The notes under the pieces were generated by a model. It saw only the letters and a list, made by a program, of their open reading frames with translations, was not told the DNA's origin and searched no databases. 64,000 nucleotides of DNA from an uncultured archaeon (GTDB taxonomy: Archaea > Nanohalarchaeota > Nanosalinia > Nanosalinales > Nanoanaerosalinaceae): the NCBI GenBank assembly GCA_964517675.1, contig CAZFEL010000005.1, positions 9,250 to 73,249 of the forward strand, written 5' to 3'. Made by a program: the position numbers and the translations under genes. Of this stretch, positions 4,316 through 31,977 are shown in pieces. Position 1 is the first letter of the stretch. Every line of letters starts with the position of its first letter.

Positions 4316-5009
4316 CGCTTTCCTCCCTGCACGGACAGTACCGGCACATATCCGCCAGCACACCGTCCTGACACGACGGATTCCGCGCAGTACATACCTC
4401 CCGACCATGTTTGATAAGGTTGATGTGGAACTCGTACTTCCGCTCGTCCGGGACCTCCCTGTCGAGGATCTCATGGGCCTTCTCCCGTGAGACGTCTTCC
4501 GGCACCAGGCCGACGCGCTTACAGATCCGGTAGACATGGGTATCGACCGGGAACACCGGCATATCGAAGACAAAACACAGCGTCACCGCCGCCGTCTTCG
4601 GTCCCACCCCCGGGAACCGCTGGAGGTACTCCTTGGCCTCATCCACGTCCATATCGCGCACGTGATCGAGGCTGAACTCGCCCCGCTGTTCGTTCAGCAT
4701 CCGCAGGAACGTCTGGATCCTCTCTGCCTTCGTCGGTCCCAGACCTGACGGCCTGACGGCCTCGGCGACCTCCTCGTGGTCTGCGTCCAGGATCGCCTGG
4801 AACGAGTCGAACTGCTTGTCCAGCCGCTCTTTCGCCACGTCACGGTTGTCATCGTTGGTGTTCTGGGACAGGATCGTCGTGATCAGTGAATCGACCGGAT
4901 CGGACCGACCTGCCTGTTCCGGTATCCCGTACTCCTCCTTCAGGCGGTCCATGACCTCCTCCATCCGGCGGTGGTACTCGGCACCGTAGGTGATCTCCTC
5001 GCTATCCAT
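4293..5009 (-). CDS. nth: Endonuclease III (HhH-GPD DNA glycosylase/AP lyase)
   Basis: ILSQNTND, HhH GVGPKTA with catalytic Lys, VDTHV, C-terminal Cys cluster. Confidence 0.9.
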   Translation of the reverse strand: MDSEEITYGAEYHRRMEEVMDRLKEEYGIPEQAGRSDPVDSLITTILSQNTNDDNRDVAKERLDKQFDSFQAILDADHEEVAEAVRPSGLGPTKAERIQTFLRMLNEQRGEFSLDHVRDMDVDEAKEYLQRFPGVGPKTAAVTLCFVFDMPVFPVDTHVYRICKRVGLVPEDVSREKAHEILDREVPDERKYEFHINLIKHGREVCTARNPSCQDGVLADMCRYCPCREESDAEKSDR

Positions 5010-5270
5010 CACCGACCGATGCCCGCCTAACAGCTTTAAATCTGTGTCACAGGATGCCAGCAAACAGACAGCGGACACCGTATACTGCCGGAAAGAGCCG
5101 GCCACCGCATCCAGGACATTACAATCGTTAACCGCACGAGAAGGTAGTTTTATAAGAAGCATACCCGTACATTATTCTACTCTGTAGTCATACAGAAAAG
5201 CGATTCCGGGTCCAGACAGCGATATCCCGCACAGGCTACAGAGCATGACACCATGACTAAGGTGTGTGCG

Positions 5271-5555
5271 ATGGATATCGGAGAACTGGAGCCAGGAGTT
5301 GAAGAGTGCGAACTTGAAGCTGAAGTCAAAGAGATACACCGTCCCCGTGCGGTCTCGACCAAGTACGGCCAGAAGAAACTGACCACCGCCGTCCTCGCGG
5401 ACAAGACAGGTGAGATAGAGACGGTCCTCTGGGAGGACCAGATCGATCGCCTCGATGAAGGACAGGATGTCCGTATCAAAGGCGCCTACGTGCGGGAATG
5501 GGTCGATCACCTTCAACTCAACATACCGCGAAAAGGGAAGATAGAACCGCTATGA
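5271..5555 (+). CDS. ssb: Single OB-fold single-stranded DNA-binding protein
   Basis: LADKTGEIETVLW...GQDVRIKGAYVREW...LQLNI pattern typical of single-OB SSB/RPA. Confidence 0.85.
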   Translation: MDIGELEPGVEECELEAEVKEIHRPRAVSTKYGQKKLTTAVLADKTGEIETVLWEDQIDRLDEGQDVRIKGAYVREWVDHLQLNIPRKGKIEPL

Positions 5556-19912: not shown

Positions 19913-20194
19913 ATGGTCGAGAACGAGACACTCGAACAGGTCGCGGCCAACGCCCGGCTCGACCTGACCGAGGAAGAGAAAGAACGGTTCCGGCAGGACC
20001 TCGAGGACATCCTCGATGCCTTCGAGTCACTCGATGATATCGATACCGACGGGGTCGAACCCGCCTTCCACCCGATCGAGCTCCAGGACAGGGAACGGGA
20101 GGACCGTGAGGAGGACTGCCTCGACCAGGCACGTGCACTCGAGAACACGGAAAACAGCGAGGACGGATACTTCAAGGGGCCGCGGGCGACATGA
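19913..20194 (+). CDS. gatC: Asp/Glu-tRNA amidotransferase subunit C
   Basis: VAANARLDL...LEDILDAF...REDREE...GYFKGPR; overlaps gatA start. Confidence 0.9.
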   Translation: MVENETLEQVAANARLDLTEEEKERFRQDLEDILDAFESLDDIDTDGVEPAFHPIELQDREREDREEDCLDQARALENTENSEDGYFKGPRAT

Positions 20195-21594
20195 GACGGA
20201 CCACCGCGACCGACCAGATCGAGGGCGATACAAGCGTCTCGATGGACGACGTCCGGCAGCGGATCGAGGAGGTCAACGAAAAGCTCGATGCCGTCCGGGC
20301 GACGGACTGGGACCGGGACGCCTCAAATGGCCGTCTCGACGGGCTCCCCATCACCGCCAAAGACAACATCTGCGTCGAGGGCATGCCAGCGACGGCAGGC
20401 TCGAAGATACTCGAACCGTACGAGCCACCGTTCACCGCCACCGCCGCACAGCGGCTCGAGGACGAGGGCGGCCGGGTGATCGCGAAGACCAACCAGGACG
20501 AGTTCGGCTTCGGCACCTTCTCGATGAACTCCGCCTACGAGATACCCAAGAACCCACACGACACCGACAGAGTGACCGGGGGGTCCTCCGGCGGGGCAGC
20601 AGCACTGACAGCCGCACTCGACCGGCCCCACCTCGCCCTGGGCCAGTCCACCGGCGGGTCGATCTCCTGTCCAGCCGCGTTCTGCGGAGTCGTCGGCCTG
20701 ACACCGACCTACGGCCGGGTCTCACGGTACGGCCTGATCGATTACGCCAACTCCATGGACAAGATCGGGCCGATCGCACGGTCCGTCGAGGACGCGGCCC
20801 ACGGCCTCGAGATCATCGCCGGCGAGGATCCTGACGATTTCACCACCGCGGGCCGCGATGTCCCAGCATACAGCAACCTCCAGGGACGTCTCGATGGCAC
20901 CACGATCGGGGTCCCGACACAGTACATGAACTACGAAGGCGTCGATGAGCGGGTCCGGGAGGAGGTCTGGTCCTCGATCAAGCGGATGGAGGACCTCGGT
21001 GCGGAGGTCAAAGAGATATCCCTGCCGAAGATCGCCAAGAACTACGCATTGCCCGCATACTACATCACCGCCGTCGCGGAGGCCTCGACCAACCTGGCCC
21101 GGTACGCCGGGATGCGGTACGGTCTCGAGGGCAACCCCGAACGACAGAACTACGATGCGTACTTCTCAGGGATACGAAGTAAGGGGTTCGGCGAGGAGAC
21201 CAAACGGCGCATCCTGCTCGGTACCTTCGCCCGCCAGGCAGGCTACCGGGACGATTACTACATGAAGGCCCTCAAGGTCCGCCGTCTCGTGATCGATGAA
21301 TTCAAGCGCGGCTTCAAGGACGTCGACATGCTGGCGGCCCCCACCATGCCGATCCCGGCACCGACCCGGGACGAGGCGGACGATCTGCCACCGACGGAGG
21401 TCTACGCGATGGACACACTGACCGTCGGCCCGAACCTCGCCGGGATGCCCCAGCTTTCATTGCCCACAGGAACCGTTGACGGCATGCCGGTCGGACTCCA
21501 TCTGATAGGGGCACAGTTCGACGAGAAAAGCCTCATCCAGGCAGGCCTGGCATACGAACAACAGGAGGGCCTGATCGATCTCCCTGATATCTAG
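20191..21594 (+). CDS. gatA: Asp/Glu-tRNA amidotransferase subunit A
   Basis: AKDNI, KTNQDEFGFG, GGSSGGAA, STGGSISCPA, ETKRRILLGTF. Confidence 0.93.
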   Translation: MRRTTATDQIEGDTSVSMDDVRQRIEEVNEKLDAVRATDWDRDASNGRLDGLPITAKDNICVEGMPATAGSKILEPYEPPFTATAAQRLEDEGGRVIAKTNQDEFGFGTFSMNSAYEIPKNPHDTDRVTGGSSGGAAALTAALDRPHLALGQSTGGSISCPAAFCGVVGLTPTYGRVSRYGLIDYANSMDKIGPIARSVEDAAHGLEIIAGEDPDDFTTAGRDVPAYSNLQGRLDGTTIGVPTQYMNYEGVDERVREEVWSSIKRMEDLGAEVKEISLPKIAKNYALPAYYITAVAEASTNLARYAGMRYGLEGNPERQNYDAYFSGIRSKGFGEETKRRILLGTFARQAGYRDDYYMKALKVRRLVIDEFKRGFKDVDMLAAPTMPIPAPTRDEADDLPPTEVYAMDTLTVGPNLAGMPQLSLPTGTVDGMPVGLHLIGAQFDEKSLIQAGLAYEQQEGLIDLPDI

Positions 21595-22547
21595 AGATCG
21601 AGCCGCTCGCGCATCTCAGCCTCAATCATCTCCCCGCCCTTGTTCTTCCGGACGACCCCGGTGAGGTATGCCTCCTGCCCCTGCCGGTCCTCGATGCCCT
21701 CTGCCTCGAGGTACTTGATGTGGGGCATGACCTCCTCGTCCGGGCCGAACAGGTCGACGTTGCGGACTTCCCGCTCGGGATCGAAGGGGTCGGCCGGCTC
21801 GTAGGTGTAGGTCTTGAGTTCCTCATCGAGGGCACGACGGAGGTACTGCTCTGCCTCAGGATGGTCCTGCTCTGCCGCCCGCTCGAGGAGACCTTCGACC
21901 GTCTCGCCCTCTGCCTGCATCATGGTGCCGTAACCGTGGTGGTCTTCGTGGTCGGGACCGACCCGCTCGAGGTCCACCCCGGTCTCCTCGAGGGCCTCGT
22001 TGTAGGACGCCACGCCTTCGTCCATCTTGTCCTCGAACTGCTTCTTGTGGACGAGCTCGTGGACCATCATGCCGAATATCGCCGGCTTGTACTCTATCCG
22101 GGGCTCTCGTTCCCCGATCCGGACGACATCGTTGTGCCAGTCGTATGATCCGGTCGCATGGTCGAACCGGAGCTCGACATCCCGGGGCTCCTCGACCGCC
22201 TTGCCCTCATCCGTGAGATACGCGGCCGCCGCCCTCGCGACACCGCGGAGGACCTCCTCCTTGTAGACCGAGGAAATCTCATCCGACCAGACGGCCTCCG
22301 AGCGGACATCCCGAAACGTCTCGGCGGCCTCATCGGGCCGGTCCTCGCGGTAATGCTTGATGGCGTCCTGCCCGGCCTCCTGGACAGCATCCTCGAGACT
22401 GACAGGATCGTCGTATCCCTCCATCTCCGCGAGGGTCTCCTCCCGCATGTACTCGCGGAAGGACGCCGTGTCCCCGGCAAGGAAGCGGCTGTACGTATCG
22501 ACCTCCTCCTCGATAAGGTCCACGGTGCCGTCCGGGTGAGCTTTCAT
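21591..22547 (-). CDS. Acidic hypothetical protein with HExxH zincin-like motif
   Basis: GSYDW...VHELVHKKQFE. Confidence 0.7.
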   Translation of the reverse strand: MKAHPDGTVDLIEEEVDTYSRFLAGDTASFREYMREETLAEMEGYDDPVSLEDAVQEAGQDAIKHYREDRPDEAAETFRDVRSEAVWSDEISSVYKEEVLRGVARAAAAYLTDEGKAVEEPRDVELRFDHATGSYDWHNDVVRIGEREPRIEYKPAIFGMMVHELVHKKQFEDKMDEGVASYNEALEETGVDLERVGPDHEDHHGYGTMMQAEGETVEGLLERAAEQDHPEAEQYLRRALDEELKTYTYEPADPFDPEREVRNVDLFGPDEEVMPHIKYLEAEGIEDRQGQEAYLTGVVRKNKGGEMIEAEMRERLDL

Positions 22548-22693
22548 TGTACAAGCATATACCCGTTCTTTTCTTATAAATGTATCTATTATGGGGTAAA
22601 AAATTAACATCTGTTATCCACGCGGGCTCTCGCATTAACGTCGCGCCGGGCCAAGAGGAAGCCTTATAAGTAGTGACTTCGCAGTAACAACCG

Positions 22694-24319
22694 ATGTCCG
22701 GTGACAACCACGACCCGCTACAGGAGGTCCACGAGACACTCACCACGATGGGTGTAGACGCCCCCATGCCGCCGGAGGACGACATCAGGTACGACGATGA
22801 TACAGGCGACAGCGGGGACGCCGGGTACTCCGAGGCCACCGACAGCCTCCATCTCGATGAGGACGGTACCGCGACCACCGCGGGCCACGAACTGCTGCAT
22901 TACGCCCAGGCGGTGTACGGGGTCGGCCGGCCGCGACCGGACCACGGCCGCAGCGTCCAGGCGCTCAGACAGACCGCGGACAACCTCGAGGACGAGCTGG
23001 GCGAAGATATCCTTGAGAGCATGCTCCCGTACGGGGACGTGCTCAACGATACAGATGCCAAGATCGCCGCGATCATGTATGCCTCGGACGAGGATTTCGC
23101 CGAGACCTACGAGGAGACCGTCGGAAGCGGCGGTGACGCGAACGATTTCCTCGATGCCGTCCAGCAGGATACAGCCGCATACGAAAACAGGATGGACGCC
23201 GTGCTCGGACCTATCGGCAGGCGCGTCCAGCAGCTCGATCAGCTGCCACTGGACACCGAGGGAGAGACGGATGCGTTCTTCTACTCCCTGTGGGACACCA
23301 GCCAGGATGATGGACCCGTGACCGGGGAGGACATGTTCGATCAGATATACAGCGGCTGGGATGAGGACGAAGCCATCAGCCTCGCGGAGGCCCTCCAGGG
23401 CCGGGACGACGGCACAGCCGTCCTCGATGCGGTCGAGGCACGGATACAGGAATACGACAAGCGTCGCGAGGACGGCATGGCTCCCGAGGAGGCGGCCGGT
23501 TCGATCATCCAGGAGGGCCTCGAGCGGTTCGAGCTGACAGGCAGGGAACTCGGGCTCCGTGGAGAACAACGGGAGTACGTCGCCGGCATCGAGAAGCGTG
23601 ATTACACCGGCTTCGAGTCAGGTGACGAGCTCGTCGACCTGCTCGAGAAGGGTGACGCATTCCGGCAGGCACTCGACGATGTCCAGTCAGCGTTCAACGG
23701 GTTCGAATCGGCATACAGGAGCCTCCATCGCGACCAGGCGGAGCAGGACATCGACGGGGAAGATAAGTCCCACAAGATAGAACAGGACCGCCAGGACATG
23801 GAGATCATGCGAGAACGGATACACGATACCGTCGAGGAGGTCCGGGAGATCTCCGGGCTGCCTGGAGAGGACGCCTTCGTCGATGCCATCGAGACCCTCG
23901 TGACCTCCTACGTCGCCGTCCTCGATGAGCACGAGCACACCCGGGAGGACCTCGATACGGGGTACCTCGAGACCGGGGAGGGACGGGAGCTGATCACCCG
24001 GCTGCGGACCGCCGGCGATGATGACCTCGCGAACGCCCCTGTCTCGAACCCGATCTCGTCCTACATCACCGAGGACCTCGCCGAGGACGATGACCGCTTC
24101 GAGCTCAAGCTCGGGGACGAGGGCGCGATGGAGCATCTCTCGCGCCTGTTCGCGGGTGACAAGCTGGACGAGATCCTGGCGGACAACGGGCTCCCTGAGG
24201 AGGAGACAGAACGGATAGAACTCGACCGGCGGGTCGAGGACAGCGATATGCCGCCGGGCTATGTCAGGTGGCTCCACGACAACGAGCCCGGCGACCCGGA
24301 CGGGAAGATGTTCCAGTGA
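22694..24319 (+). CDS. Large acidic helical protein with N-terminal HExxH motif
   Basis: AGYSEAT...GHELLHYAQ; divergent from the previous gene. Confidence 0.75.
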   Translation: MSGDNHDPLQEVHETLTTMGVDAPMPPEDDIRYDDDTGDSGDAGYSEATDSLHLDEDGTATTAGHELLHYAQAVYGVGRPRPDHGRSVQALRQTADNLEDELGEDILESMLPYGDVLNDTDAKIAAIMYASDEDFAETYEETVGSGGDANDFLDAVQQDTAAYENRMDAVLGPIGRRVQQLDQLPLDTEGETDAFFYSLWDTSQDDGPVTGEDMFDQIYSGWDEDEAISLAEALQGRDDGTAVLDAVEARIQEYDKRREDGMAPEEAAGSIIQEGLERFELTGRELGLRGEQREYVAGIEKRDYTGFESGDELVDLLEKGDAFRQALDDVQSAFNGFESAYRSLHRDQAEQDIDGEDKSHKIEQDRQDMEIMRERIHDTVEEVREISGLPGEDAFVDAIETLVTSYVAVLDEHEHTREDLDTGYLETGEGRELITRLRTAGDDDLANAPVSNPISSYITEDLAEDDDRFELKLGDEGAMEHLSRLFAGDKLDEILADNGLPEEETERIELDRRVEDSDMPPGYVRWLHDNEPGDPDGKMFQ

Positions 24320-25093: not shown

Positions 25094-25175
25094 ATCCTGT
25101 AGTTGTGAGCAGGTGCTGAAAAAGCGACGGGCCGAGACAGATTTTTAACCCTTCCCGGGAAGTCTGGACTGACCC

Positions 25176-26588
25176 ATGGGCGATGGCGTGACGATCGGAC
25201 TGGAGACCCACGTGCAGCTCGATACCGACACGAAGCTGTTCTGTGGGTGCTCGGCGGATCTCGGCGATGACCCGAACACCCACACCTGCGAGATCTGTCT
25301 GGGCATGCCGGGGTCGAAGCCACGCACCAACCGGCGGGTTATCGAGTACGCGGCCAAGGCAGCGATGGCGCTGAACTGCCCGATCAACGACGAGGTCCGG
25401 TTCTCCCGGAAGACATATTTTTACCCGGACATGGCGAAGAACTTCCAGATAACCCAGTACGAGATCCCGATCGGCGGTCGAGGCCAGGTCCGGACCCGGC
25501 TCCGCGGACAGGAGAAAGAGATCGGTATCAAGCGCGTCCACATCGAGGAAGATCCCGCACGGATCGTCCACAAAGGCGGGGACATCGCCTCCTCGGACTA
25601 CACCCTTATCGATTACAACCGGGCCGGGATGCCCCTGATCGAGGTCGTCACCGAGCCTGACTTCAACTCCCCGGAGGAGGCACGGGCCTTCCTCCAGAAA
25701 CTGACCCAGATCCTTGAGTACCTCGGCGTCTATGATCCGGCCTCCGATCTCTCGATCAAGTCCGACGCCAACATCTCGATCGACGGCGGGGAGCGAGTGG
25801 AGGTCAAAAACATCACCGGCACCAAAGGCATCGAGCAGGCCCTGAAGTACGAGATCACCCGGCAGCGGAACCTCAAAAAGCGAGGACAGGACATCGAGCG
25901 CGAGACCCGCTCATACAGCTCCTCCCAGGAGATCACGACATCCCTGCGACAGAAGGAGATGGAAGAGGAGTACGGCTATATCTTCGAGCCAGACCTGACG
26001 AAGATCAGCGTCGATGCGGACCAGAAAGACGAGATACGCGAGACGATCCCCGAGCTGCCGGACGAGAAGTTCGACCGGTTCCGCAAAGAGTACGGGCTCG
26101 AGGACGAGCTCGTCGAGTCCCTGGTCACCGACCCGGAGCTGGCCGAGGCCTTCGAGGAGCTGGCCGGGGACCATGACACGGACCTGGTCGCGGCCTGGCT
26201 GACAGGCGAGCTGAAAAAGACACTGAACTACAACGGTATCGCATACTCACGATCGGGCCTCCAGACAGCCTGGCTCGATCATATCATCGGCCTCCTCGAA
26301 GACAACGAGATCAGCGACCGGAACGCAGAGATGCTGCTCCGGGAGCTTATCGAGGACCCCCGCGACCCACAGGAGGTCATCGAACAGCAGGACCTTCTCC
26401 AGGCGGAAGAGGACGAGATCAAAGAGATCGTCACGGCCGTCCTCGAGGACCACGAGGACGCGGTCCAGGACTACCGCGACGGCAAGGAGGATGCTATCAA
26501 CTTCCTGGTTGGCCAGATCATGCAGGAGAGCAACGGGAAGGCGGACCCGAAGGAAGCCCGCCAGATGCTGATGGAGGAACTCGAGTGA
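25176..26588 (+). CDS. gatB: Asp/Glu-tRNA amidotransferase subunit B
   Basis: IGLETHVQL, RKTYFYPD, HIEED, DYNRAGMPLIEVVTEP, EVKN, Yqey tail. Confidence 0.97.
   Translation: MGDGVTIGLETHVQLDTDTKLFCGCSADLGDDPNTHTCEICLGMPGSKPRTNRRVIEYAAKAAMALNCPINDEVRFSRKTYFYPDMAKNFQITQYEIPIGGRGQVRTRLRGQEKEIGIKRVHIEEDPARIVHKGGDIASSDYTLIDYNRAGMPLIEVVTEPDFNSPEEARAFLQKLTQILEYLGVYDPASDLSIKSDANISIDGGERVEVKNITGTKGIEQALKYEITRQRNLKKRGQDIERETRSYSSSQEITTSLRQKEMEEEYGYIFEPDLTKISVDADQKDEIRETIPELPDEKFDRFRKEYGLEDELVESLVTDPELAEAFEELAGDHDTDLVAAWLTGELKKTLNYNGIAYSRSGLQTAWLDHIIGLLEDNEISDRNAEMLLRELIEDPRDPQEVIEQQDLLQAEEDEIKEIVTAVLEDHEDAVQDYRDGKEDAINFLVGQIMQESNGKADPKEARQMLMEELE
26435..26483 (+). repeat. 49-bp perfect direct repeat, copy 1 (copy 2 at 27346-27394)
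   Basis: GGCCGTCCTCGAGGACCACGAGGACGCGGTCCAGGACTACCGCGACGGC is identical in gatB and the downstream gene. Confidence 0.95.
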
Positions 26589-27502
26589 TGGATGCGGATG
26601 ATCTCCTCAACAGGCATGGCATCGAGTACATGTTGATCGAGCAGGACAGACCGACCCGGAAGTGCCAGGACTCCGCCGAGGAGCGAGGGGTCTCGGAGAC
26701 CCAGATCGTCAAGAGCCTGATTCTCAGACACGATGGAGAATGCGTCCACTGCCTCCTCCCCGGCGACCGGGACGTAGACGAGGAGAACTTCGACGGCGAT
26801 ATCGAGATGGTTTCCGATGCGGAGGTCAAAGAGCTCACCGGCTGTGAACCTGGGACCGTTCACCCGTTCGCCTCCGACTGCCGGCTCATCATCGATGAGC
26901 ATCTGATGGAAGAGGACAAGCTCTCCTTTACCGCCGGGGACCCGTACCGCGGTATCATCATCTCCCGGGACCAGTTCCTCGAGGCCGTTCAGCGAGAGTT
27001 CGAGGTCGATGACATAAGCAGCAAGGAACCGTCCGAGGCCGAGCGGTACGCCAACGAGCACGGGATCACGCCGGGCGAGGCGAAAGACCTCCTCGACCAT
27101 GACGATGAAGACCTGTTCGAGGACCTGGCCTCACGGCTCGGGACAGGCGCTGCCTCCACGTACATCCGGTTCATGGAACGGGCAGAGAAAAGCGAAGACG
27201 AAACCAATGACCTGACCGCAGGGGAACTCGAGAAAGTCATCGAGGGAAGCTCATCAGAGGAACAGACACGGTCCGCCATCGTCTCGCTGCTGCAGGGAGA
27301 GGAACCTGATTTGGACGACGATATCGACCTTGACGCGACCATCGAGGCCGTCCTCGAGGACCACGAGGACGCGGTCCAGGACTACCGCGACGGCGAGGAC
27401 AGTGCCCTCAATCATCTGATCGGGCAGGTCATGAGAGCAAGCAGTGGGAGGGCAGACCCTGAAGAGGCACGGGAACGGCTCCTCGAGGAGATGCCGTCAT
27501 GA
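26588..27502 (+). CDS. YbaK/ProX-type aminoacyl-tRNA deacylase domain fused to a GatB helical + Yqey tRNA-binding region
   Basis: N-term QIVKSLIL, GTVHPF, FTAGDP; C-term LEDHEDAVQDYRDG...LIGQVM..S.GRADP; TGATG overlap with gatB. Confidence 0.85.
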   Translation: MDADDLLNRHGIEYMLIEQDRPTRKCQDSAEERGVSETQIVKSLILRHDGECVHCLLPGDRDVDEENFDGDIEMVSDAEVKELTGCEPGTVHPFASDCRLIIDEHLMEEDKLSFTAGDPYRGIIISRDQFLEAVQREFEVDDISSKEPSEAERYANEHGITPGEAKDLLDHDDEDLFEDLASRLGTGAASTYIRFMERAEKSEDETNDLTAGELEKVIEGSSSEEQTRSAIVSLLQGEEPDLDDDIDLDATIEAVLEDHEDAVQDYRDGEDSALNHLIGQVMRASSGRADPEEARERLLEEMPS

Positions 27503-28507
27503 GACGAAGCTCTTGATGTGATCGCGTATCTCTCTCAGTTCTTTCCGCGTCAGGACCCCACCGACCGCTGTCGGGATCCAGAACGACATGACCCTGAACA
27601 GCAACACCACCGCCGCTGCCTCCTCGATACCGACACCGACCCCGCGGTAGGAAGCCGCCATCGTCGCCTCGAAGGCCCCGACCCCACCAGGCAGCATGCT
27701 CGCGGCACCGATCCATGTCGCGGTGATGAATCCGATAACGACCGATCCAAGGGCTATCTCGGTCTCAAGGGACAGGAACAGCACATAGACCGTGACCGCC
27801 ATGATCACCATCCCCAGGAGGTTACAGAAGACCGGGAACGCGAGCTTCGACCTGTGATTCCTGGCATACCGGACGCCATCCGCGATCTCATCAGCTATCC
27901 GACGCATCCGAGGCCCCGCCGGCCGGACCAGCCGTCCGAACAGCGATTCCAGCCGCCGGACCAGCTGGCGGAGCCGATCGATCTCGGAGACCAGATAGCC
28001 CGTGTACACGATACCAGCAACAACGACCGCAGTCAGGATCCCCGGGACGATGAGGGAACGGCGCGTGACCTCCCCCTGGACGAACAGGATGAACCCGAAG
28101 ACGACGATGATCAGGGTGGAGACCGCATTAGCGACGTTTTTCAGGATGAGAGTGCGCTTCGAGACCTTCGAATCGACCCCTTCCCTGCGGAAGTGATAAT
28201 CGAGGACCGCGAGCCCACTGACACCCATGCTGGGGATCGTGTTCCCGACGAACTGGGATTTCAGGGTCGCACCGACAAGTCCATGGAACCCCATCGAGTA
28301 CCCGAACGTGCCTAACAGGACCTGATAGACGTAGGCATTGATCACGATCCCCGCCACGACGAGGAAGGCAGCAAGCACGAGAAAGCCAGGACGAGCATCG
28401 AAGACAATGGCGAGGACCCGCTCCAACGGGAGGAAATGATCGAGTGCGACCAGCGCGATCAGTGTCAGGGCCACCAGGATGCCGAAGTTCTTCAGTCTGG
28501 CCTTCAT
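27497..28507 (-). CDS. Lysylphosphatidylglycerol synthase TM / UPF0104 flippase-like membrane protein
   Basis: QFVGNTIPSMG, LPGGVGAFEA, LLFRVMSFWIP. Confidence 0.85.
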   Translation of the reverse strand: MKARLKNFGILVALTLIALVALDHFLPLERVLAIVFDARPGFLVLAAFLVVAGIVINAYVYQVLLGTFGYSMGFHGLVGATLKSQFVGNTIPSMGVSGLAVLDYHFRREGVDSKVSKRTLILKNVANAVSTLIIVVFGFILFVQGEVTRRSLIVPGILTAVVVAGIVYTGYLVSEIDRLRQLVRRLESLFGRLVRPAGPRMRRIADEIADGVRYARNHRSKLAFPVFCNLLGMVIMAVTVYVLFLSLETEIALGSVVIGFITATWIGAASMLPGGVGAFEATMAASYRGVGVGIEEAAAVVLLFRVMSFWIPTAVGGVLTRKELREIRDHIKSFVS

Positions 28508-29231: not shown

Positions 29232-29717
29232 TCAGTCTGTCCGACGGTACCGCACGATGTCGAACCGATCGCGTTCCTCCCGGCCAATCTCTTTCCATGA
29301 TCGTTCATCCCAGTCAGGGAACCGGGTGTCCCCCTCATAGGACTCATGGAGCTCCGAGAGGATCATCGTATCGGCATGCTCGAGGAACTGCTCATAGATC
29401 GAGGCCCCGCCGATGACGAAGACCTCCTCGTCCAGTTCTCCCGCGGTCTCGATCGCTTCCTCGATCCCGTGGACGTTGATCACGTCGTCCGGCAGGTCGA
29501 GGTCCTCGTGGCTGAGGACGATGTTGGTCCGGCCCGGAAGCGGTCCACCGAGGCCGTCCTCGATGTCCTCCCATGTGGTCTGTCCCATGACGACAGGATG
29601 ACCCGCAGTGGTCTCGCGGAAGTGTTCCTGGTCTTCCGGCAGGTCCCACGGTATCGAGCCACCCCGCCCGATGACCCTGTTTGCCGCGACCGCCGCGATG
29701 AGGATGATCTCTGTCAT
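29232..29717 (-). CDS. folA: Dihydrofolate reductase
   Basis: IAAVAANRVIG, IPWDLPED, MGQTTW, LPGRTNIV, IGGASIY, GDTRFP. Confidence 0.95.
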   Translation of the reverse strand: MTEIILIAAVAANRVIGRGGSIPWDLPEDQEHFRETTAGHPVVMGQTTWEDIEDGLGGPLPGRTNIVLSHEDLDLPDDVINVHGIEEAIETAGELDEEVFVIGGASIYEQFLEHADTMILSELHESYEGDTRFPDWDERSWKEIGREERDRFDIVRYRRTD

Positions 29718-30721
29718 TCTGCCACAGCGAACCTGATCGGTCCATGGCTCTGGTAGTCCTCCAGGTTTATGTCATCGACGGTCAGGTCCTCCATCGGTCT
29801 GCCCTCGACCACGATCGATGGGCGGTCATAGGGCTCCCGGGACAGCTGCTCGAGGAGCCCCGGGACGTGGTCGTGGTTTTTCTCGCCATCAGGCTCGGCC
29901 GGGGCCTCCTCAAGGAGCCAGTCTTTCACCCGGCGGTACCCATCTCGTCCATCGACACCCACCAGCCGGTCCTGGAGTTCATCCAAGCGGTCCGCATAAA
30001 ATCCGGCGCGATCGCCTTTCCCGCAGTACACGTGGGCGTCCACGATCGTGTGCCCGAAGGCCCCGATCTCCAGGCCTGTCCGCTCCGCGATGTAGTGGGT
30101 GAGGGCAGAATAGGACGCGATGTTGAACGGCACCCCCACCGCGATGTCCCCGGAGCGCTGGGTCAGATGGGTGTTGAGCCGTCCGTCCTGGACGTTGAGG
30201 GCGAAGGTGTAATGGCACGGCGGCAGCCGCGAGACCGCAGCATTGGCCGGGTGCCAGGCACTGACAACCATCCTGCGGGAGCGGGGCTCGTCCCGGAGCG
30301 TGTCGATGACATAGCGGAGCTGGTCGAAGGTCCTGCCCTGGGGCTCCTCGTTCACCCAGCGGTGATCGTCCGCCGGCCAGGCCTCACCATCGAGGCTGCC
30401 CTCGGGCAGCGGGAACCGACGCCAGAACCGGCCATAGGCAGTCTCGAGCATCCCGTCCTCATCACTCCATGCGTCCCAGATCGAGGTCTCCTTCCGGAGC
30501 TCCCTGATGTGTTCTTTCCCGGAGAGATACCACAGCAGCTCGTGGACCAGGGCCGACCAGCGGTTCCCGTCCATCTGCTTCGTCGTCAGAAGCGGGAACC
30601 CCTGCTGGAGGTCGATGCGGTAGGACCGAGAAAACGTCGCGATGGTATCGACCGCGGTCCGGTTGGGTTTGTGCGAGCCGTTGCAGAGTGCGTCCGTGAC
30701 GAGGTCGTGGTACTGGTCCAT
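29714..30721 (-). CDS. thyA: Thymidylate synthase ThyA
   Basis: FPLLTTK, ELLWYL, SRRMVVSAW, LPPCH, QRSGD, GVPFNIASY, DAHVY. Confidence 0.95.
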   Translation of the reverse strand: MDQYHDLVTDALCNGSHKPNRTAVDTIATFSRSYRIDLQQGFPLLTTKQMDGNRWSALVHELLWYLSGKEHIRELRKETSIWDAWSDEDGMLETAYGRFWRRFPLPEGSLDGEAWPADDHRWVNEEPQGRTFDQLRYVIDTLRDEPRSRRMVVSAWHPANAAVSRLPPCHYTFALNVQDGRLNTHLTQRSGDIAVGVPFNIASYSALTHYIAERTGLEIGAFGHTIVDAHVYCGKGDRAGFYADRLDELQDRLVGVDGRDGYRRVKDWLLEEAPAEPDGEKNHDHVPGLLEQLSREPYDRPSIVVEGRPMEDLTVDDINLEDYQSHGPIRFAVAE

Positions 30722-30729
30722 CGTATCAC

Positions 30730-31977
30730 CTAGTAACGGATGTCTGTATCATCGTAGATCGGGTGGGTTTCACACAGCTCCGTGACCTCCTTTCGTACCG
30801 CATCCGTCTCGCCGTCGAGGCCGCGGTCGATCAGGTCCCCGATCCGGCAGAACTGCTGTTCCTCCAGTCCACGCGTGGTCAGGGCCGGGACCCCGATGCG
30901 GATGCCGGAGGTCACCCGTGGCGGGCGGTCGTCGTACGGTATCATGTTCTTGTTGACGACGATACCAGCCTCCTCGAGGCGCTTCTCTGCCTCTTTCCCT
31001 GTCATCTCCCGGGAGGTCATGTCCGCCAGCACGAGGTGGGTATCGGTCCCCCCGCTGACCAGCCGGATGCCGTGGTCCCGGAGCCGCTCCGCCAGGGCAT
31101 CGGCGTTGGCACGGATCTGGCGCTGGTAGGCCTCGAAGTCCTCCTCCTGGGCCAGTCCGAAGGAGACCGCCTTGGCCGCGACCTGGTGCATCAGCGGGCC
31201 GCCCTGGCTGTGCGGGAAGACACCGTGGTCGATGTCATCGGCGAGGTCGTCCTGGCACATGATCATCCCGCCCCGGGCGCCCCGGAGGGTCTTGTGGGTC
31301 GTCGTGGTGACGATGTCACAGGCCGGGAACGGGTCCGGGTGGATGCCAGCAGCGACCAGCCCGGCGATGTGGGCGATATCCGCCATCAGGTACGCATCCG
31401 TGGCATCCGCGGCCTCCCGGAACGCCTCGAAAGGCACCTCCCGGGGGTACGCGGAGAAGCCACAGACGATGAGGTCCGGATCGGTCTCCTCGGCGGCAGC
31501 GATGATGTCCCCGTGCTCGAACCGCTCGGTCCGTTCGTTGATCGCGTAGGTCTCGAAGTCGAAGAGGTTCCCGGAGAAGTTGACCCCGTGGCCATGGCTG
31601 AGATGGCCGCCGTGGTCCAGGACCGGGCCGAGGACGGTATCGCCGGCCTCGAGGACGGAGAAATACGCCGCGAAGTTGGCCTGGGAGCCCGAATGGGGCT
31701 GGACGTTGACGTGGTCCGCCCCGAAGAGCTCGGCCCCACGGTCCCGTGCCAAATCCTCGATCGCATCGTGGTGCTGACAGCCGGCGTAGTACCGCTCGCC
31801 AGGATAGCCTTCCGCATACTTGTTGGTCAGGATCGATCCCTGGGCCTGGAGGACCTCCTGGGGGACGAAGTTCTCGGAGGCGATCATCTCGAGGCCGCCC
31901 CGCTCCTGTCTGTCCTTCTCGTTTTTGAGTATGTCATGTATCTCGGGGTCTGCGTGTCGTAGGTCTCTGTGTTCCAT
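30730..31977 (-). CDS. glyA: Serine hydroxymethyltransferase
   Basis: MIASENF, NKYAEGYPG, HGGHLSHG, TTTHKTLRGARGG, SGIRIG. Confidence 0.97.
   Translation of the reverse strand: MEHRDLRHADPEIHDILKNEKDRQERGGLEMIASENFVPQEVLQAQGSILTNKYAEGYPGERYYAGCQHHDAIEDLARDRGAELFGADHVNVQPHSGSQANFAAYFSVLEAGDTVLGPVLDHGGHLSHGHGVNFSGNLFDFETYAINERTERFEHGDIIAAAEETDPDLIVCGFSAYPREVPFEAFREAADATDAYLMADIAHIAGLVAAGIHPDPFPACDIVTTTTHKTLRGARGGMIMCQDDLADDIDHGVFPHSQGGPLMHQVAAKAVSFGLAQEEDFEAYQRQIRANADALAERLRDHGIRLVSGGTDTHLVLADMTSREMTGKEAEKRLEEAGIVVNKNMIPYDDRPPRVTSGIRIGVPALTTRGLEEQQFCRIGDLIDRGLDGETDAVRKEVTELCETHPIYDDTDIRY

What the first reader, a model, noticed from the sequence alone, without database searches (positions are those of the whole stretch)
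26588..27502. YbaK-type trans-editing domain fused to the GatB tRNA-binding module, coupled to gatB
Seen: residues 1-140 carry YbaK/ProX hallmarks (QIVKSL with the conserved Lys, GTVHPF loop, FTAG). The remaining part parallels the GatB C-terminal half (ERYANEHGIT..LFEDLA vs DRFRKEYGLE..AFEELA; near-identical Yqey tail). The start overlaps the gatB stop (TGATG). Established: INS/YbaK-superfamily proteins hydrolyse mischarged aminoacyl-tRNAs, and the GatB helical/Yqey region recognises the tRNA elbow in the transamidation pathway. Inference: a deacylase that has acquired tRNA(Asn)/tRNA(Gln) specificity, i.e. a quality-control arm that removes unamidated Asp-tRNA(Asn)/Glu-tRNA(Gln) or other mischarged species. 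I do not know this architecture from characterised proteins.
Basis: partly seen in the sequence, partly recalled or inferred. Interest (0 to 1): 0.8.

Follow-up and report, generated by a model that had tools for sequence, protein, structure and literature searches.

The report
Editing deacylase carrying GatB's tRNA-binding arm
A nanohaloarchaeal gene immediately after gatB encodes a tRNA proofreading (YbaK/ProX-type) domain attached to a copy of GatB's tRNA-binding arm, a conserved but unstudied design that probably polices the tRNAs of the indirect asparagine/glutamine charging pathway.

Summary
ORF 26588-27502 (304 aa) has an INS/YbaK-superfamily editing domain (res 1-140; invariant Lys42, GTVHP loop). 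It is followed by a module colinear with GatB's whole helical and YqeY-tail region (hhalign 99.9%, GatB 292-470), so the editing domain sits exactly where GatB's catalytic cradle domain would be. Its ATG shares one base with the gatB stop codon.

The protein is conserved full-length across Nanohaloarchaea, with gatB directly upstream in 26 of 27 informative species loci. The tail is an old paralogue (about 42% identity to the genome's own GatB), not "near-identical".

New context:
- Other DPANN archaea carry a ProX-like domain inside or in front of a complete GatB.
- The same two-module family occurs, unlinked to gatB, in Thermoplasmata- and Hydrothermarchaeaceae-labelled MAGs and in algae.

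No paper describing either architecture was found.

Most likely it is an elbow-anchored aminoacyl-tRNA deacylase acting on GatB's tRNAs (tRNA-Asn, possibly tRNA-Gln). The substrate is inferred, not shown. A general ProRS-type error editor using the tail only as a tRNA handle is nearly as likely. It is a new variant of a known kind, of moderate to high interest.

The parts
19913..20194 (+). gatC (GatC subunit). Its stop overlaps the gatA ATG (ATGA).
   Evidence: tblastn with nanohaloarchaeal GatC, E 2e-21. Pfam GatC E 2e-19. ORF table.
20191..21594 (+). gatA (amidase subunit), 467 aa.
   Evidence: Pfam Amidase E 3e-112. tblastn E 1e-145.
25142..25148 (+). TATA-box-like TTTTTAA, 28-34 nt upstream of the gatB ATG. 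Putative promoter of the gatB-fusion unit.
   Evidence: Read directly from the sequence. Function is inferred. No comparable element lies in the last 90 nt of gatB.
25176..26588 (+). gatB, complete (cradle, helical and tail domains), 470 aa.
   Evidence: GatB_N 318 bits and GatB_Yqey 134 bits. NCBIfam gatB equivalog 573 bits against a 338-bit cut-off.
26573..26577 (+). GGAGG Shine-Dalgarno-like motif, 10 nt before the fusion ATG and inside the gatB 3' end.
   Evidence: Sequence. Translational coupling is inferred.
26588..27502 (+). Two-module protein, 304 aa: editing domain plus GatB helical/tail module.
26588..27007 (+). Residues 1-140: INS/YbaK-superfamily (ProX-like) aminoacyl-tRNA editing domain.
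   Evidence: PF04073 E 5e-19. PDB profile hits APE2540 1wdv E 1e-14 and ProXp-x 2cx5 E 8e-9. Foldseek hits 1dbu, 1wdv and 2cx5 with target TM 0.81-0.84. pLDDT mostly 83-98.
26711..26713 (+). Codon of Lys42, the conserved editing-site lysine.
   Evidence: Invariant in 58 homologues. Aligned to the K of IVKTLIV in APE2540.
26852..26866 (+). G89-T-V-H-P93, the GXXXP loop of the editing site.
   Evidence: Invariant in 58 homologues. His92 is specific to this family: 100% in Nanohaloarchaea and eukaryotes, 17% in free-standing relatives, and Pro in GatB-linked DPANN domains.
27017..27292 (+). Residues about 144-235: counterpart of the GatB helical domain. Invariant Arg198.
   Evidence: hhalign colinear with GatB from residue 292. 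The NCBIfam GatE hit spans res 147-302. Helices are predicted in the AF2 model.
27293..27499 (+). Residues about 236-304: YqeY-type tail domain. The D-loop pocket equivalents I278, M282, G287, A289 and P291 lie at nt 27419-27460.
   Evidence: PF02637 E 1e-14. 55% identity to the genome's own GatB tail. Aligned to S. aureus GatB 404-472. Pocket residues as defined in PMC2811023. G279, M282 and G287 are invariant.

Best explanation
The gene encodes a two-module trans-acting aminoacyl-tRNA deacylase.

Shown:
- The N-terminal 140 residues are an intact INS/YbaK-superfamily editing domain with the catalytic-site lysine and the GXXXP loop.
- The C-terminal 160 residues are a full copy of GatB's helical and tail domains. 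The editing domain therefore sits in the position that the cradle (kinase/transamidase) domain holds in GatB.
- The gene is transcriptionally and probably translationally coupled to gatB, and this pairing is conserved across Nanohaloarchaea.

Inferred:
- The tail docks on the tRNA elbow/D-loop as it does in GatB, and the helical domain acts as the spacer.
- The aminoacylated CCA end is thereby delivered to the editing pocket instead of the amidation pocket.
- The enzyme thus samples the same tRNAs as GatCAB: tRNA(Asn), and tRNA(Gln) if GatCAB serves both.
- It hydrolyses species that should not reach the ribosome. These would be unamidated Asp-tRNA(Asn)/Glu-tRNA(Gln) that escape or exceed GatCAB capacity, or an aminoacyl form that GatCAB cannot convert.
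- Co-expression with gatB would balance repair (amidation) against discard (hydrolysis).
For: Architecture and fold. The C-module matches GatB 292-470 at 99.9% probability.

Conservation:
- Active-site residues are invariant in 58 homologues.
- Tail-pocket residues are kept. [quoted passage not shown]

Linkage to gatB:
- The gatB-fusion pair is conserved in 26 of 27 informative species loci, while the surrounding genes vary.
- gatC and gatA are present in the window, so the pathway is complete.
- Independent Rosetta-stone evidence: ProX-like domains are inserted in, or N-terminal to, a complete GatB in gatCAB operons of other DPANN. These account for 19 of the 120 best hits.
- They form a separate clade in the domain tree.
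- In QJJ-9 the gatCAB genes are gone from the locus next to ftsZ. The remaining gene there has lost both the tail and the lysine (K to R) (compared).

Precedents:
- A YqeY/GatB-type tail works in cis as a tRNA(Gln) affinity enhancer in D. radiodurans GlnRS (PMC1865053).
- Hydrolysis of excess Glu-tRNA(Gln) is an accepted safeguard in H. pylori (PMC3241645).
Against: - No activity or tRNA-binding data exist.
- The same two-module family occurs without gatB linkage in Thermoplasmata- and Hydrothermarchaeaceae-labelled MAGs. There it lies downstream of an IF-2B-family gene.
- It also occurs in algae, including Guillardia theta. A GatCAB-bound role therefore cannot be universal.
- The editing domain's nearest solved relatives are APE2540 and ProXp-x. 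ProXp-x acts on Abu/Ala-type errors.
- Hydrolysing an obligatory pathway intermediate is costly.
- The fusion tail differs systematically from the GatB tail. It has a conserved G-x-D-S-A motif and has lost the Pro of GKADP in most members, so its tRNA preference may have drifted.
- The QJJ-9 observation is a single case, and I could not check the rest of that genome.
Confidence: 0.4

Rival explanations
1. It is a general error-editing factor of the ProX/ProXp-x type. It would clear Ala-, Abu-, Cys-, Ser- or Thr-tRNAs made by an INS-less archaeal ProRS or by other synthetases. In this reading the borrowed GatB tail is only a non-specific tRNA-elbow handle that raises affinity, as the C-terminal domain of plant ProXp-ala does. 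The position next to gatB would reflect history or convenience of co-expression, not a shared substrate.
For: - The nearest solved relatives of the catalytic domain are APE2540 (E 1e-14) and ProXp-x 2cx5.
- Family members in other archaea and in algae are unlinked to gatB.
- The plant ProXp-ala CTD enhances tRNA binding without changing the target (PMC9425024).
- The YqeY domain of D. radiodurans GlnRS is described as an affinity enhancer.
- Archaeal ProRS lacks an editing insertion (established knowledge).
Against: - The gatB-fusion adjacency is kept across a whole class, although the proteins have diverged to about 33% identity and the flanks have been rearranged.
- Independent cis unions of a ProX-like domain with a complete GatB exist in other DPANN.
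- Both known functional contexts of this tail type involve tRNA(Gln)/tRNA(Asn).
- The family has its own active-site signature (Cys26, His54, His92), which most free-standing relatives lack.
Confidence: 0.35
2. The protein is not primarily a hydrolase. It would bind the aminoacylated 3' end and the elbow of tRNA(Asn)/tRNA(Gln). In doing so it would shield or hand over the labile Asp/Glu-tRNA intermediate, acting as a transamidosome-like chaperone, or it would compete with GatB as a regulator.
For: - It occupies the same tRNA surface as GatB by homology.
- It is co-expressed with gatB.
- The conserved lysine of this superfamily serves substrate binding and positioning (title of a work cited; otherwise my own knowledge of the field), so its conservation does not prove hydrolysis.
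Against: - The full editing-site signature (Lys, GXXXP loop, SxTxG) is invariant, as in active deacylases.
- No INS-superfamily member is known to act purely as a binder (own knowledge).
- The protein lacks the cradle domain, which in GatB is the part that contacts GatA and GatC.
Confidence: 0.1
3. The fusion is an assembly or annotation artefact, or a decaying remnant of a gatB duplication.
For: A 153-nt direct repeat (74% identity) links the 3' ends of gatB and the ORF.
Against: - 58 full-length homologues come from independent assemblies, including complete genomes.
- There are 26 invariant columns.
- The AF2 model is confident, with mean pLDDT 87.
- The fusion tail is an old paralogue. Identity to the genome's own GatB tail is 42%, against 40% to the GatB tails of other genomes.
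Confidence: 0.02

Closest known systems
Free-standing INS-superfamily trans-editing factors: APE2540 (PDB 1WDV), ProXp-x/TTHA1699 (2CX5), YbaK (1DBU)
   Same: Same fold (Foldseek target TM 0.81-0.84). Same conserved lysine and GXXXP loop. Presumably the same ester-hydrolysis chemistry.
   Different: Those proteins are single-domain and recognise at most the acceptor end (review PMC11295145). This one carries a 160-residue tRNA-binding module. It scores far below the YbaK equivalog cut-off (39 vs 153 bits). It also has its own Cys26/His54/His92 signature.
GatB subunit of GatCAB (helical and YqeY-like tail domains)
   Same: The C-module is colinear with GatB 292-470. The D-loop pocket residues are kept. 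It is encoded immediately downstream of gatB.
   Different: It has no cradle (catalytic) domain, so it is not an amidotransferase subunit (53 vs 338 bits on the gatB model). The Lys-rich KxGKxK motif reads RDGEDS here. That motif is also degenerate in the nanohaloarchaeal GatB itself.
Deinococcus radiodurans GlnRS with a C-terminal YqeY extension (PDB 2HZ7; PMC1865053)
   Same: A GatB/YqeY-type tail is appended in cis to another tRNA enzyme, where it raises tRNA affinity. The tail matches our profile at E 1.5e-8.
   Different: The partner domain there is a synthetase, not an editing domain.
Plant ProXp-ala with its C-terminal domain (PMC9425024)
   Same: An INS-superfamily trans-editing enzyme whose appended helical C-terminal domain improves tRNA binding.
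   Different: The plant CTD is described as a dimerising helix behind a disordered linker, with no homology to translation factors. Here the module is demonstrably GatB-derived. I could not test homology between the two because no plant sequence was at hand.
Archaeal free-standing ThrRS editing protein (ThrRS-ed)
   Same: A trans-editing protein that keeps a tRNA-binding domain copied from the enzyme it assists, here hydrolytic domain plus anticodon-binding domain (review).
   Different: It has a different editing fold (DTD-like) and a different tRNA-binding domain. It serves ThrRS rather than an amidotransferase.
Helicobacter pylori GluRS2 hydrolysing excess Glu-tRNA(Gln) (PMC3241645)
   Same: A functional precedent for discarding the misacylated intermediate of the indirect pathway.
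   Different: There the activity resides in the synthetase itself. No dedicated editing domain is involved.

Membership tests
INS/YbaK superfamily (Pfam PF04073 tRNA_edit) | Sequence match above the curated threshold | tested here: met
   69 bits against a 25.5-bit cut-off, E 5e-19, res 21-131.
INS/YbaK superfamily (Pfam PF04073 tRNA_edit) | YbaK-type alpha/beta fold | tested here: met
   AF2 model with pLDDT mostly 83-98 over res 1-140. Foldseek hits 1dbu, 1wdv and 2cx5 at E about 1e-10, target TM 0.81-0.84.
INS/YbaK superfamily (Pfam PF04073 tRNA_edit) | Conserved editing-site lysine and GXXXP loop | tested here: met
   K42 and G89-T-V-H-P93 are invariant in 58 homologues. They align to APE2540 IVKTLIV / GGVPP.
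INS/YbaK superfamily (Pfam PF04073 tRNA_edit) | Hydrolysis of a mischarged aminoacyl-tRNA | not testable with these tools
   Needs a deacylation assay.
YbaK sensu stricto (Cys-tRNA(Pro) deacylase, TIGR00011) | Score above the equivalog cut-off | tested here: not met
   39 bits against a 153-bit cut-off. The database label 'YbaK/EbsC family' therefore holds only at superfamily level.
ProXp-x (TTHA1699-like Abu-tRNA deacylase) | Closest-family relationship of the catalytic domain | tested here: inconclusive
   2cx5 matches at E 8e-9 and 23% identity. APE2540 matches better. The NJ tree has weak support. No family-specific model was available.
GatB (Asp/Glu-tRNA amidotransferase subunit B) | GatB_N cradle/catalytic domain | tested here: not met
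   No PF02934 hit. The gatB equivalog scores 53 bits against a 338-bit cut-off.
GatB (Asp/Glu-tRNA amidotransferase subunit B) | Helical plus YqeY-like tail module (PF02637) | tested here: met
   54.9 bits against a 27-bit cut-off. hhalign 99.9% over GatB 292-470. Foldseek hit 3ip4_B over 173 columns.
GatB (Asp/Glu-tRNA amidotransferase subunit B) | Tail hydrophobic pocket (S. aureus V448/449, M452, G457, A459, P461) and Lys-rich KxGKxK motif | tested here: inconclusive
   The pocket is kept in the window protein (I278, M282, G287, A289, P291). M282 and G287 are invariant family-wide, but the Pro is variable. The Lys-rich motif is lost (RDGEDS), though it is retained in non-halophilic members P0067 and P0068.
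GatB (Asp/Glu-tRNA amidotransferase subunit B) | Binding of the tRNA(Asn)/tRNA(Gln) elbow | not testable with these tools
   Needs binding assays or a complex structure.

The most novel reading that the evidence does not exclude
tRNA-dependent amidotransferases may have a dedicated hydrolytic proofreading arm that has gone unnoticed. It would be built into GatB itself in several DPANN lineages, as a ProX-like domain inserted in the Zn loop or fused N-terminally. In Nanohaloarchaea it would be supplied in trans by a protein that swaps GatB's cradle domain for the editing domain on the same tRNA-binding scaffold. Indirect Asn/Gln-tRNA synthesis would then have a 'repair or discard' decision comparable to aaRS editing.
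Probability: 0.3. Interest if true: 0.85.

Novelty: new variant of a known kind. Interest (0 to 1): 0.66.

Why it matters
Free-standing editing factors of the YbaK/ProX superfamily are described as single-domain proteins that read only the acceptor end of tRNA. The indirect Asn/Gln pathway is thought to protect the genetic code by channelling and by elongation-factor rejection, not by hydrolytic editing.

A conserved editing domain mounted on GatB's own tRNA-recognition arm, together with complete GatB proteins that carry such a domain in cis, points to an editing step tied to the amidotransferase. It also provides a natural example of retargeting an editing domain by swapping tRNA-binding modules.

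The idea is directly testable with recombinant proteins. It would also refine the annotation of several hundred 'YbaK/EbsC family' and 'GatB' entries.

Tried and rejected
1. Recent duplication or gene conversion of the gatB 3' end: rejected.
   - Over the last 70 aa, the fusion tail is 42% identical to its own GatB tail on average and 40% identical to the GatB tails of other genomes.
   - Fusion tails are 50% identical to each other, and GatB tails 65%.
   - The window's own pair is only modestly elevated (50%, rank 1).
2. Common origin of the nanohaloarchaeal editing domain and the DPANN GatB-linked domain: not supported.
   - They fall in separate NJ clades, but bootstraps are weak.
   - The first tree run had a numerical fault and was discarded.
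3. Arg33 as a special carboxylate-binding residue shared with the GatB-linked domains: rejected. It is present in 75% of free-standing relatives.
4. Homology of the plant ProXp-ala CTD to this module: could not be tested. No plant sequence was available, and the paper's supplement holds no sequences. None of the 150 listed hits of the exhaustive profile search showed that architecture.
5. tRNA genes near the loci as a clue to the target: only unrelated tRNA-Arg, Leu, Glu, Gly and Ile genes were found.
7. Literature searches for YbaK+YqeY, Nanohaloarchaea+GatB, trans-editing+GatB and GatB+YbaK+fusion found no description of the architecture.
Full report
**Observation**

The + strand ORF from ATG 26588 to the stop at 27500-27502 encodes 304 aa. 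gatB (25176-26588, 470 aa) ends with TGA 26586-26588, which shares base 26588 with the ATG. A GGAGG lies 10 nt upstream, at 26573-26577. An in-frame GTG at 26585 is less likely to be the start, because homologues begin M-x-A-D.

Pfam finds two domains:
- tRNA_edit (PF04073), res 21-131, E 5e-19.
- GatB_Yqey (PF02637), res 213-301, E 1e-14.

NCBIfam gives only sub-threshold hits to gatB, gatE and YbaK_EbsC models. The protein is therefore neither a GatB nor a YbaK sensu stricto.

BLASTP against the neighbouring GatB gives 55% identity over the last 69 residues. At DNA level a 153-nt repeat is 74% identical.

**Anatomy**

A profile of 67 C-terminal modules aligns to a GatB alignment over 160 columns. 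This covers window-GatB residues 292-470, with probability 99.9% and E 6e-32. The alignment starts at the cradle/helical boundary defined for S. aureus GatB: cradle 1-294, helical 295-407, tail 412-475 (PMC2811023). The editing domain therefore replaces the cradle domain on an otherwise complete GatB tRNA-binding arm.

The AF2 model is confident (mean pLDDT 87). The pTM of 0.59 indicates that the orientation between domains is uncertain. Foldseek matches the N-domain to YbaK, APE2540 and ProX structures with target TM 0.81-0.84. It matches the C-part to GatB (3ip4_B, 173 columns).

Conserved residues:
- In 58 full-length homologues K42, G89-T-V-H-P93, S113, T115, G117, R198, G269, G279, M282 and G287 are invariant.
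- Mapped onto S. aureus GatB, I278, M282, G287, A289 and P291 correspond to the hydrophobic pocket proposed to read the tRNA D-loop.
- The Lys-rich KxGKxK motif reads RDGEDS here. It is also degenerate in nanohaloarchaeal GatB, but it is kept in the non-halophilic family members P0067 and P0068.

**Distribution and synteny**

All 58 close homologues carry both domains. The named ones are Nanohaloarchaea, annotated only as "YbaK/EbsC family protein". A scan of species-representative genomes found 29 loci, all nanohaloarchaeal apart from one evidently mis-binned contig. The closest is Ca. Asbonarchaeum danakilense, at 54% identity.

gatB lies upstream on the same strand in 26 of 27 informative loci:
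- In 16 loci the two genes overlap or lie at most 21 nt apart.
- In 1 locus they are 54 nt apart.
- In 9 loci they are 300-470 nt apart.
- Two further loci start at a contig edge.
- QJJ-5 is the exception.

The flanking genes differ between genomes. In the window, gatC (19913-20194) and gatA (20191-21594) lie 3.6 kb upstream as a separate overlapping pair. gatB has its own TATA-like element at 25142-25148. The unit is thus a two-gene gatB-fusion operon, and the downstream gene is convergent.

**Age of the tail**

Over the last 70 residues, fusion tails are on average 42% identical to their own GatB tail and 40% identical to the GatB tails of other genomes. Fusion tails are 50% identical to each other, and GatB tails 65%. 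The module is an old, faster-evolving paralogue rather than a recent copy.

**Wider context found with the exhaustive profile search**

(a) GatB with a cis editing domain. Non-halophilic DPANN, including Diapherotrites, carry complete GatB proteins of 615-705 aa with a ProX-like domain.
- In some the domain is inserted between the CxC and CxxC halves of the cradle Zn loop. In others it is fused N-terminally.
- One example sits in a gatC-gatA-gatB operon beside a bacterial-type AspRS, and was recovered from two independent assemblies.
- These domains keep the lysine and a G-L-V-P-P loop.
- They form their own clade together with a free-standing Diapherotrites protein.

(b) The same two-module family outside Nanohaloarchaea.
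- It occurs in MAGs labelled Thermoplasmata and Hydrothermarchaeaceae. There it lies downstream of an IF-2B-family gene or stands alone, never next to gatB.
- It also occurs in unicellular eukaryotes. One contig carries kinesin, SNAPC1 and Kelch genes. The nearest short relative is a Guillardia theta protein.
- The eukaryotic C-terminal region matches the fusion C-module at 99.7% and GatB 295-469 at 98.2%.

(c) A degenerate relative. In nanohaloarchaeon QJJ-9, the gene next to ftsZ is a 141-aa tail-less relative with Lys replaced by Arg. In other genomes this position is followed by gatC, gatA, gatB and the fusion, but in QJJ-9 the gat genes are absent from the locus. This is a single, suggestive case of joint loss.

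**Mechanism**

What is shown:
- An intact editing site.
- An intact GatB-type tRNA arm.
- Operon coupling to gatB.
- Repeated physical union of ProX-like domains with GatB.

What is inferred:
- The tail anchors the tRNA elbow and the helical domain spans the acceptor/T arm.
- The aminoacyl-CCA end enters the editing pocket.
- The enzyme therefore works on GatB's tRNAs and hydrolyses Asp/Glu-tRNA(Asn/Gln) that is not amidated, or some form GatCAB cannot fix.

Two precedents exist for the elements of this model. One is the cis affinity-enhancing YqeY domain of D. radiodurans GlnRS. The other is hydrolysis of excess Glu-tRNA(Gln) by H. pylori GluRS2.

I put this model at about 0.4. The main rival, at about 0.35, is a general ProX/ProXp-x-like editor using the tail as a generic handle. 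That rival is supported by:
- the catalytic domain's nearest relatives;
- the gatB-unlinked family members in other archaea and algae;
- the plant ProXp-ala CTD analogy.

The family-specific Cys26/His54/His92 signature shows that the pocket differs from both free-standing relatives and the DPANN cis domains. It does not identify the substrate.

**Comparison with the known, and novelty**

The protein is a member of the INS/YbaK superfamily, with sequence, fold and motifs all met. It carries a bona fide GatB helical/tail module. It fails the tests for YbaK proper and for GatB.

A 2024 review lists INS-superfamily trans-editing factors as single-domain proteins lacking dedicated RNA-binding domains. 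The listed exceptions are the plant ProXp-ala CTD and the ProRS fusions. Five literature searches found no description of a YbaK-GatB/YqeY union.

I class the finding as a new variant of a known kind. It is real, conserved and testable, but its substrate is unresolved.

Noticed in passing
L033 6001-7932 and L034 6001-7932; proteins P0074, P0208, P0215, P0221, P0222, P0232, P0227, P0356 (insertion type); P0209-P0211, P0076 (N-terminal type): Complete GatB proteins of non-halophilic DPANN (Diapherotrites and relatives) carry a ProX/YbaK-type editing domain in cis. It is either inserted between the CxC and CxxC halves of the cradle-domain Zn loop or fused N-terminally. One example sits in a gatC-gatA-gatB operon beside a bacterial-type AspRS. 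No paper describing this was found.
   Followed up: partly
Proteins P0078, P0082, P0083, P0084, P0354, P0350, P0080; locus L036 410-1474: The same two-module family (editing domain plus GatB helical/tail) exists in unicellular eukaryotes. One contig carries kinesin, SNAPC1 and Kelch genes, and a short relative is Guillardia theta XP_005829093.1. Some gene models have a long Ala/Arg-rich N-terminal extension that could be a targeting peptide or a gene-calling artefact.
   Followed up: partly
L035 7001-7936, L037 6001-6927, L038 5473-6420: Non-halophilic archaeal members (Thermoplasmata- and Hydrothermarchaeaceae-labelled MAGs) keep the Lys-rich GatB tail motif. They are not next to gatB. In two MAGs the gene directly follows an IF-2B-family gene.
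   Followed up: partly
L039 6001-6426 (Nanohaloarchaeota QJJ-9): A 141-aa tail-less relative with the catalytic Lys replaced by Arg sits beside ftsZ, at a locus where other genomes have gatC, gatA, gatB and the fusion. This may be joint loss or decay. The rest of that genome could not be checked.
   Followed up: partly
window 21591-22610 (-) and 22694-24319 (+): Two sizeable ORFs between gatA and gatB (339 aa, and a very acidic 541 aa) have no Pfam match at E <= 1e-4.
   Followed up: no
window 29232-31977 (-): A compact folate/thymidylate cluster with overlapping genes: dihydrofolate reductase, thymidylate synthase and serine hydroxymethyltransferase. It is preceded by a HAD hydrolase and an LPG_synthase_TM-family membrane protein (27497-28507), whose 3' end overlaps the fusion gene's stop convergently.
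   Followed up: no
L018 (JBLGBK010000009.1): A contig in a MAG labelled Colwellia polaris carries a typical nanohaloarchaeal gatB-fusion pair. The contig is probably mis-binned.
   Followed up: no
L001 5561-6004; L021 about 4900-5340: A 147-aa predicted membrane ORF lies between gatB and the fusion gene in Ca. Nanohalococcus occultus. A 41%-identical copy lies just after the fusion gene in another genome. Nine loci have a 300-470-nt gap at this position.
   Followed up: partly
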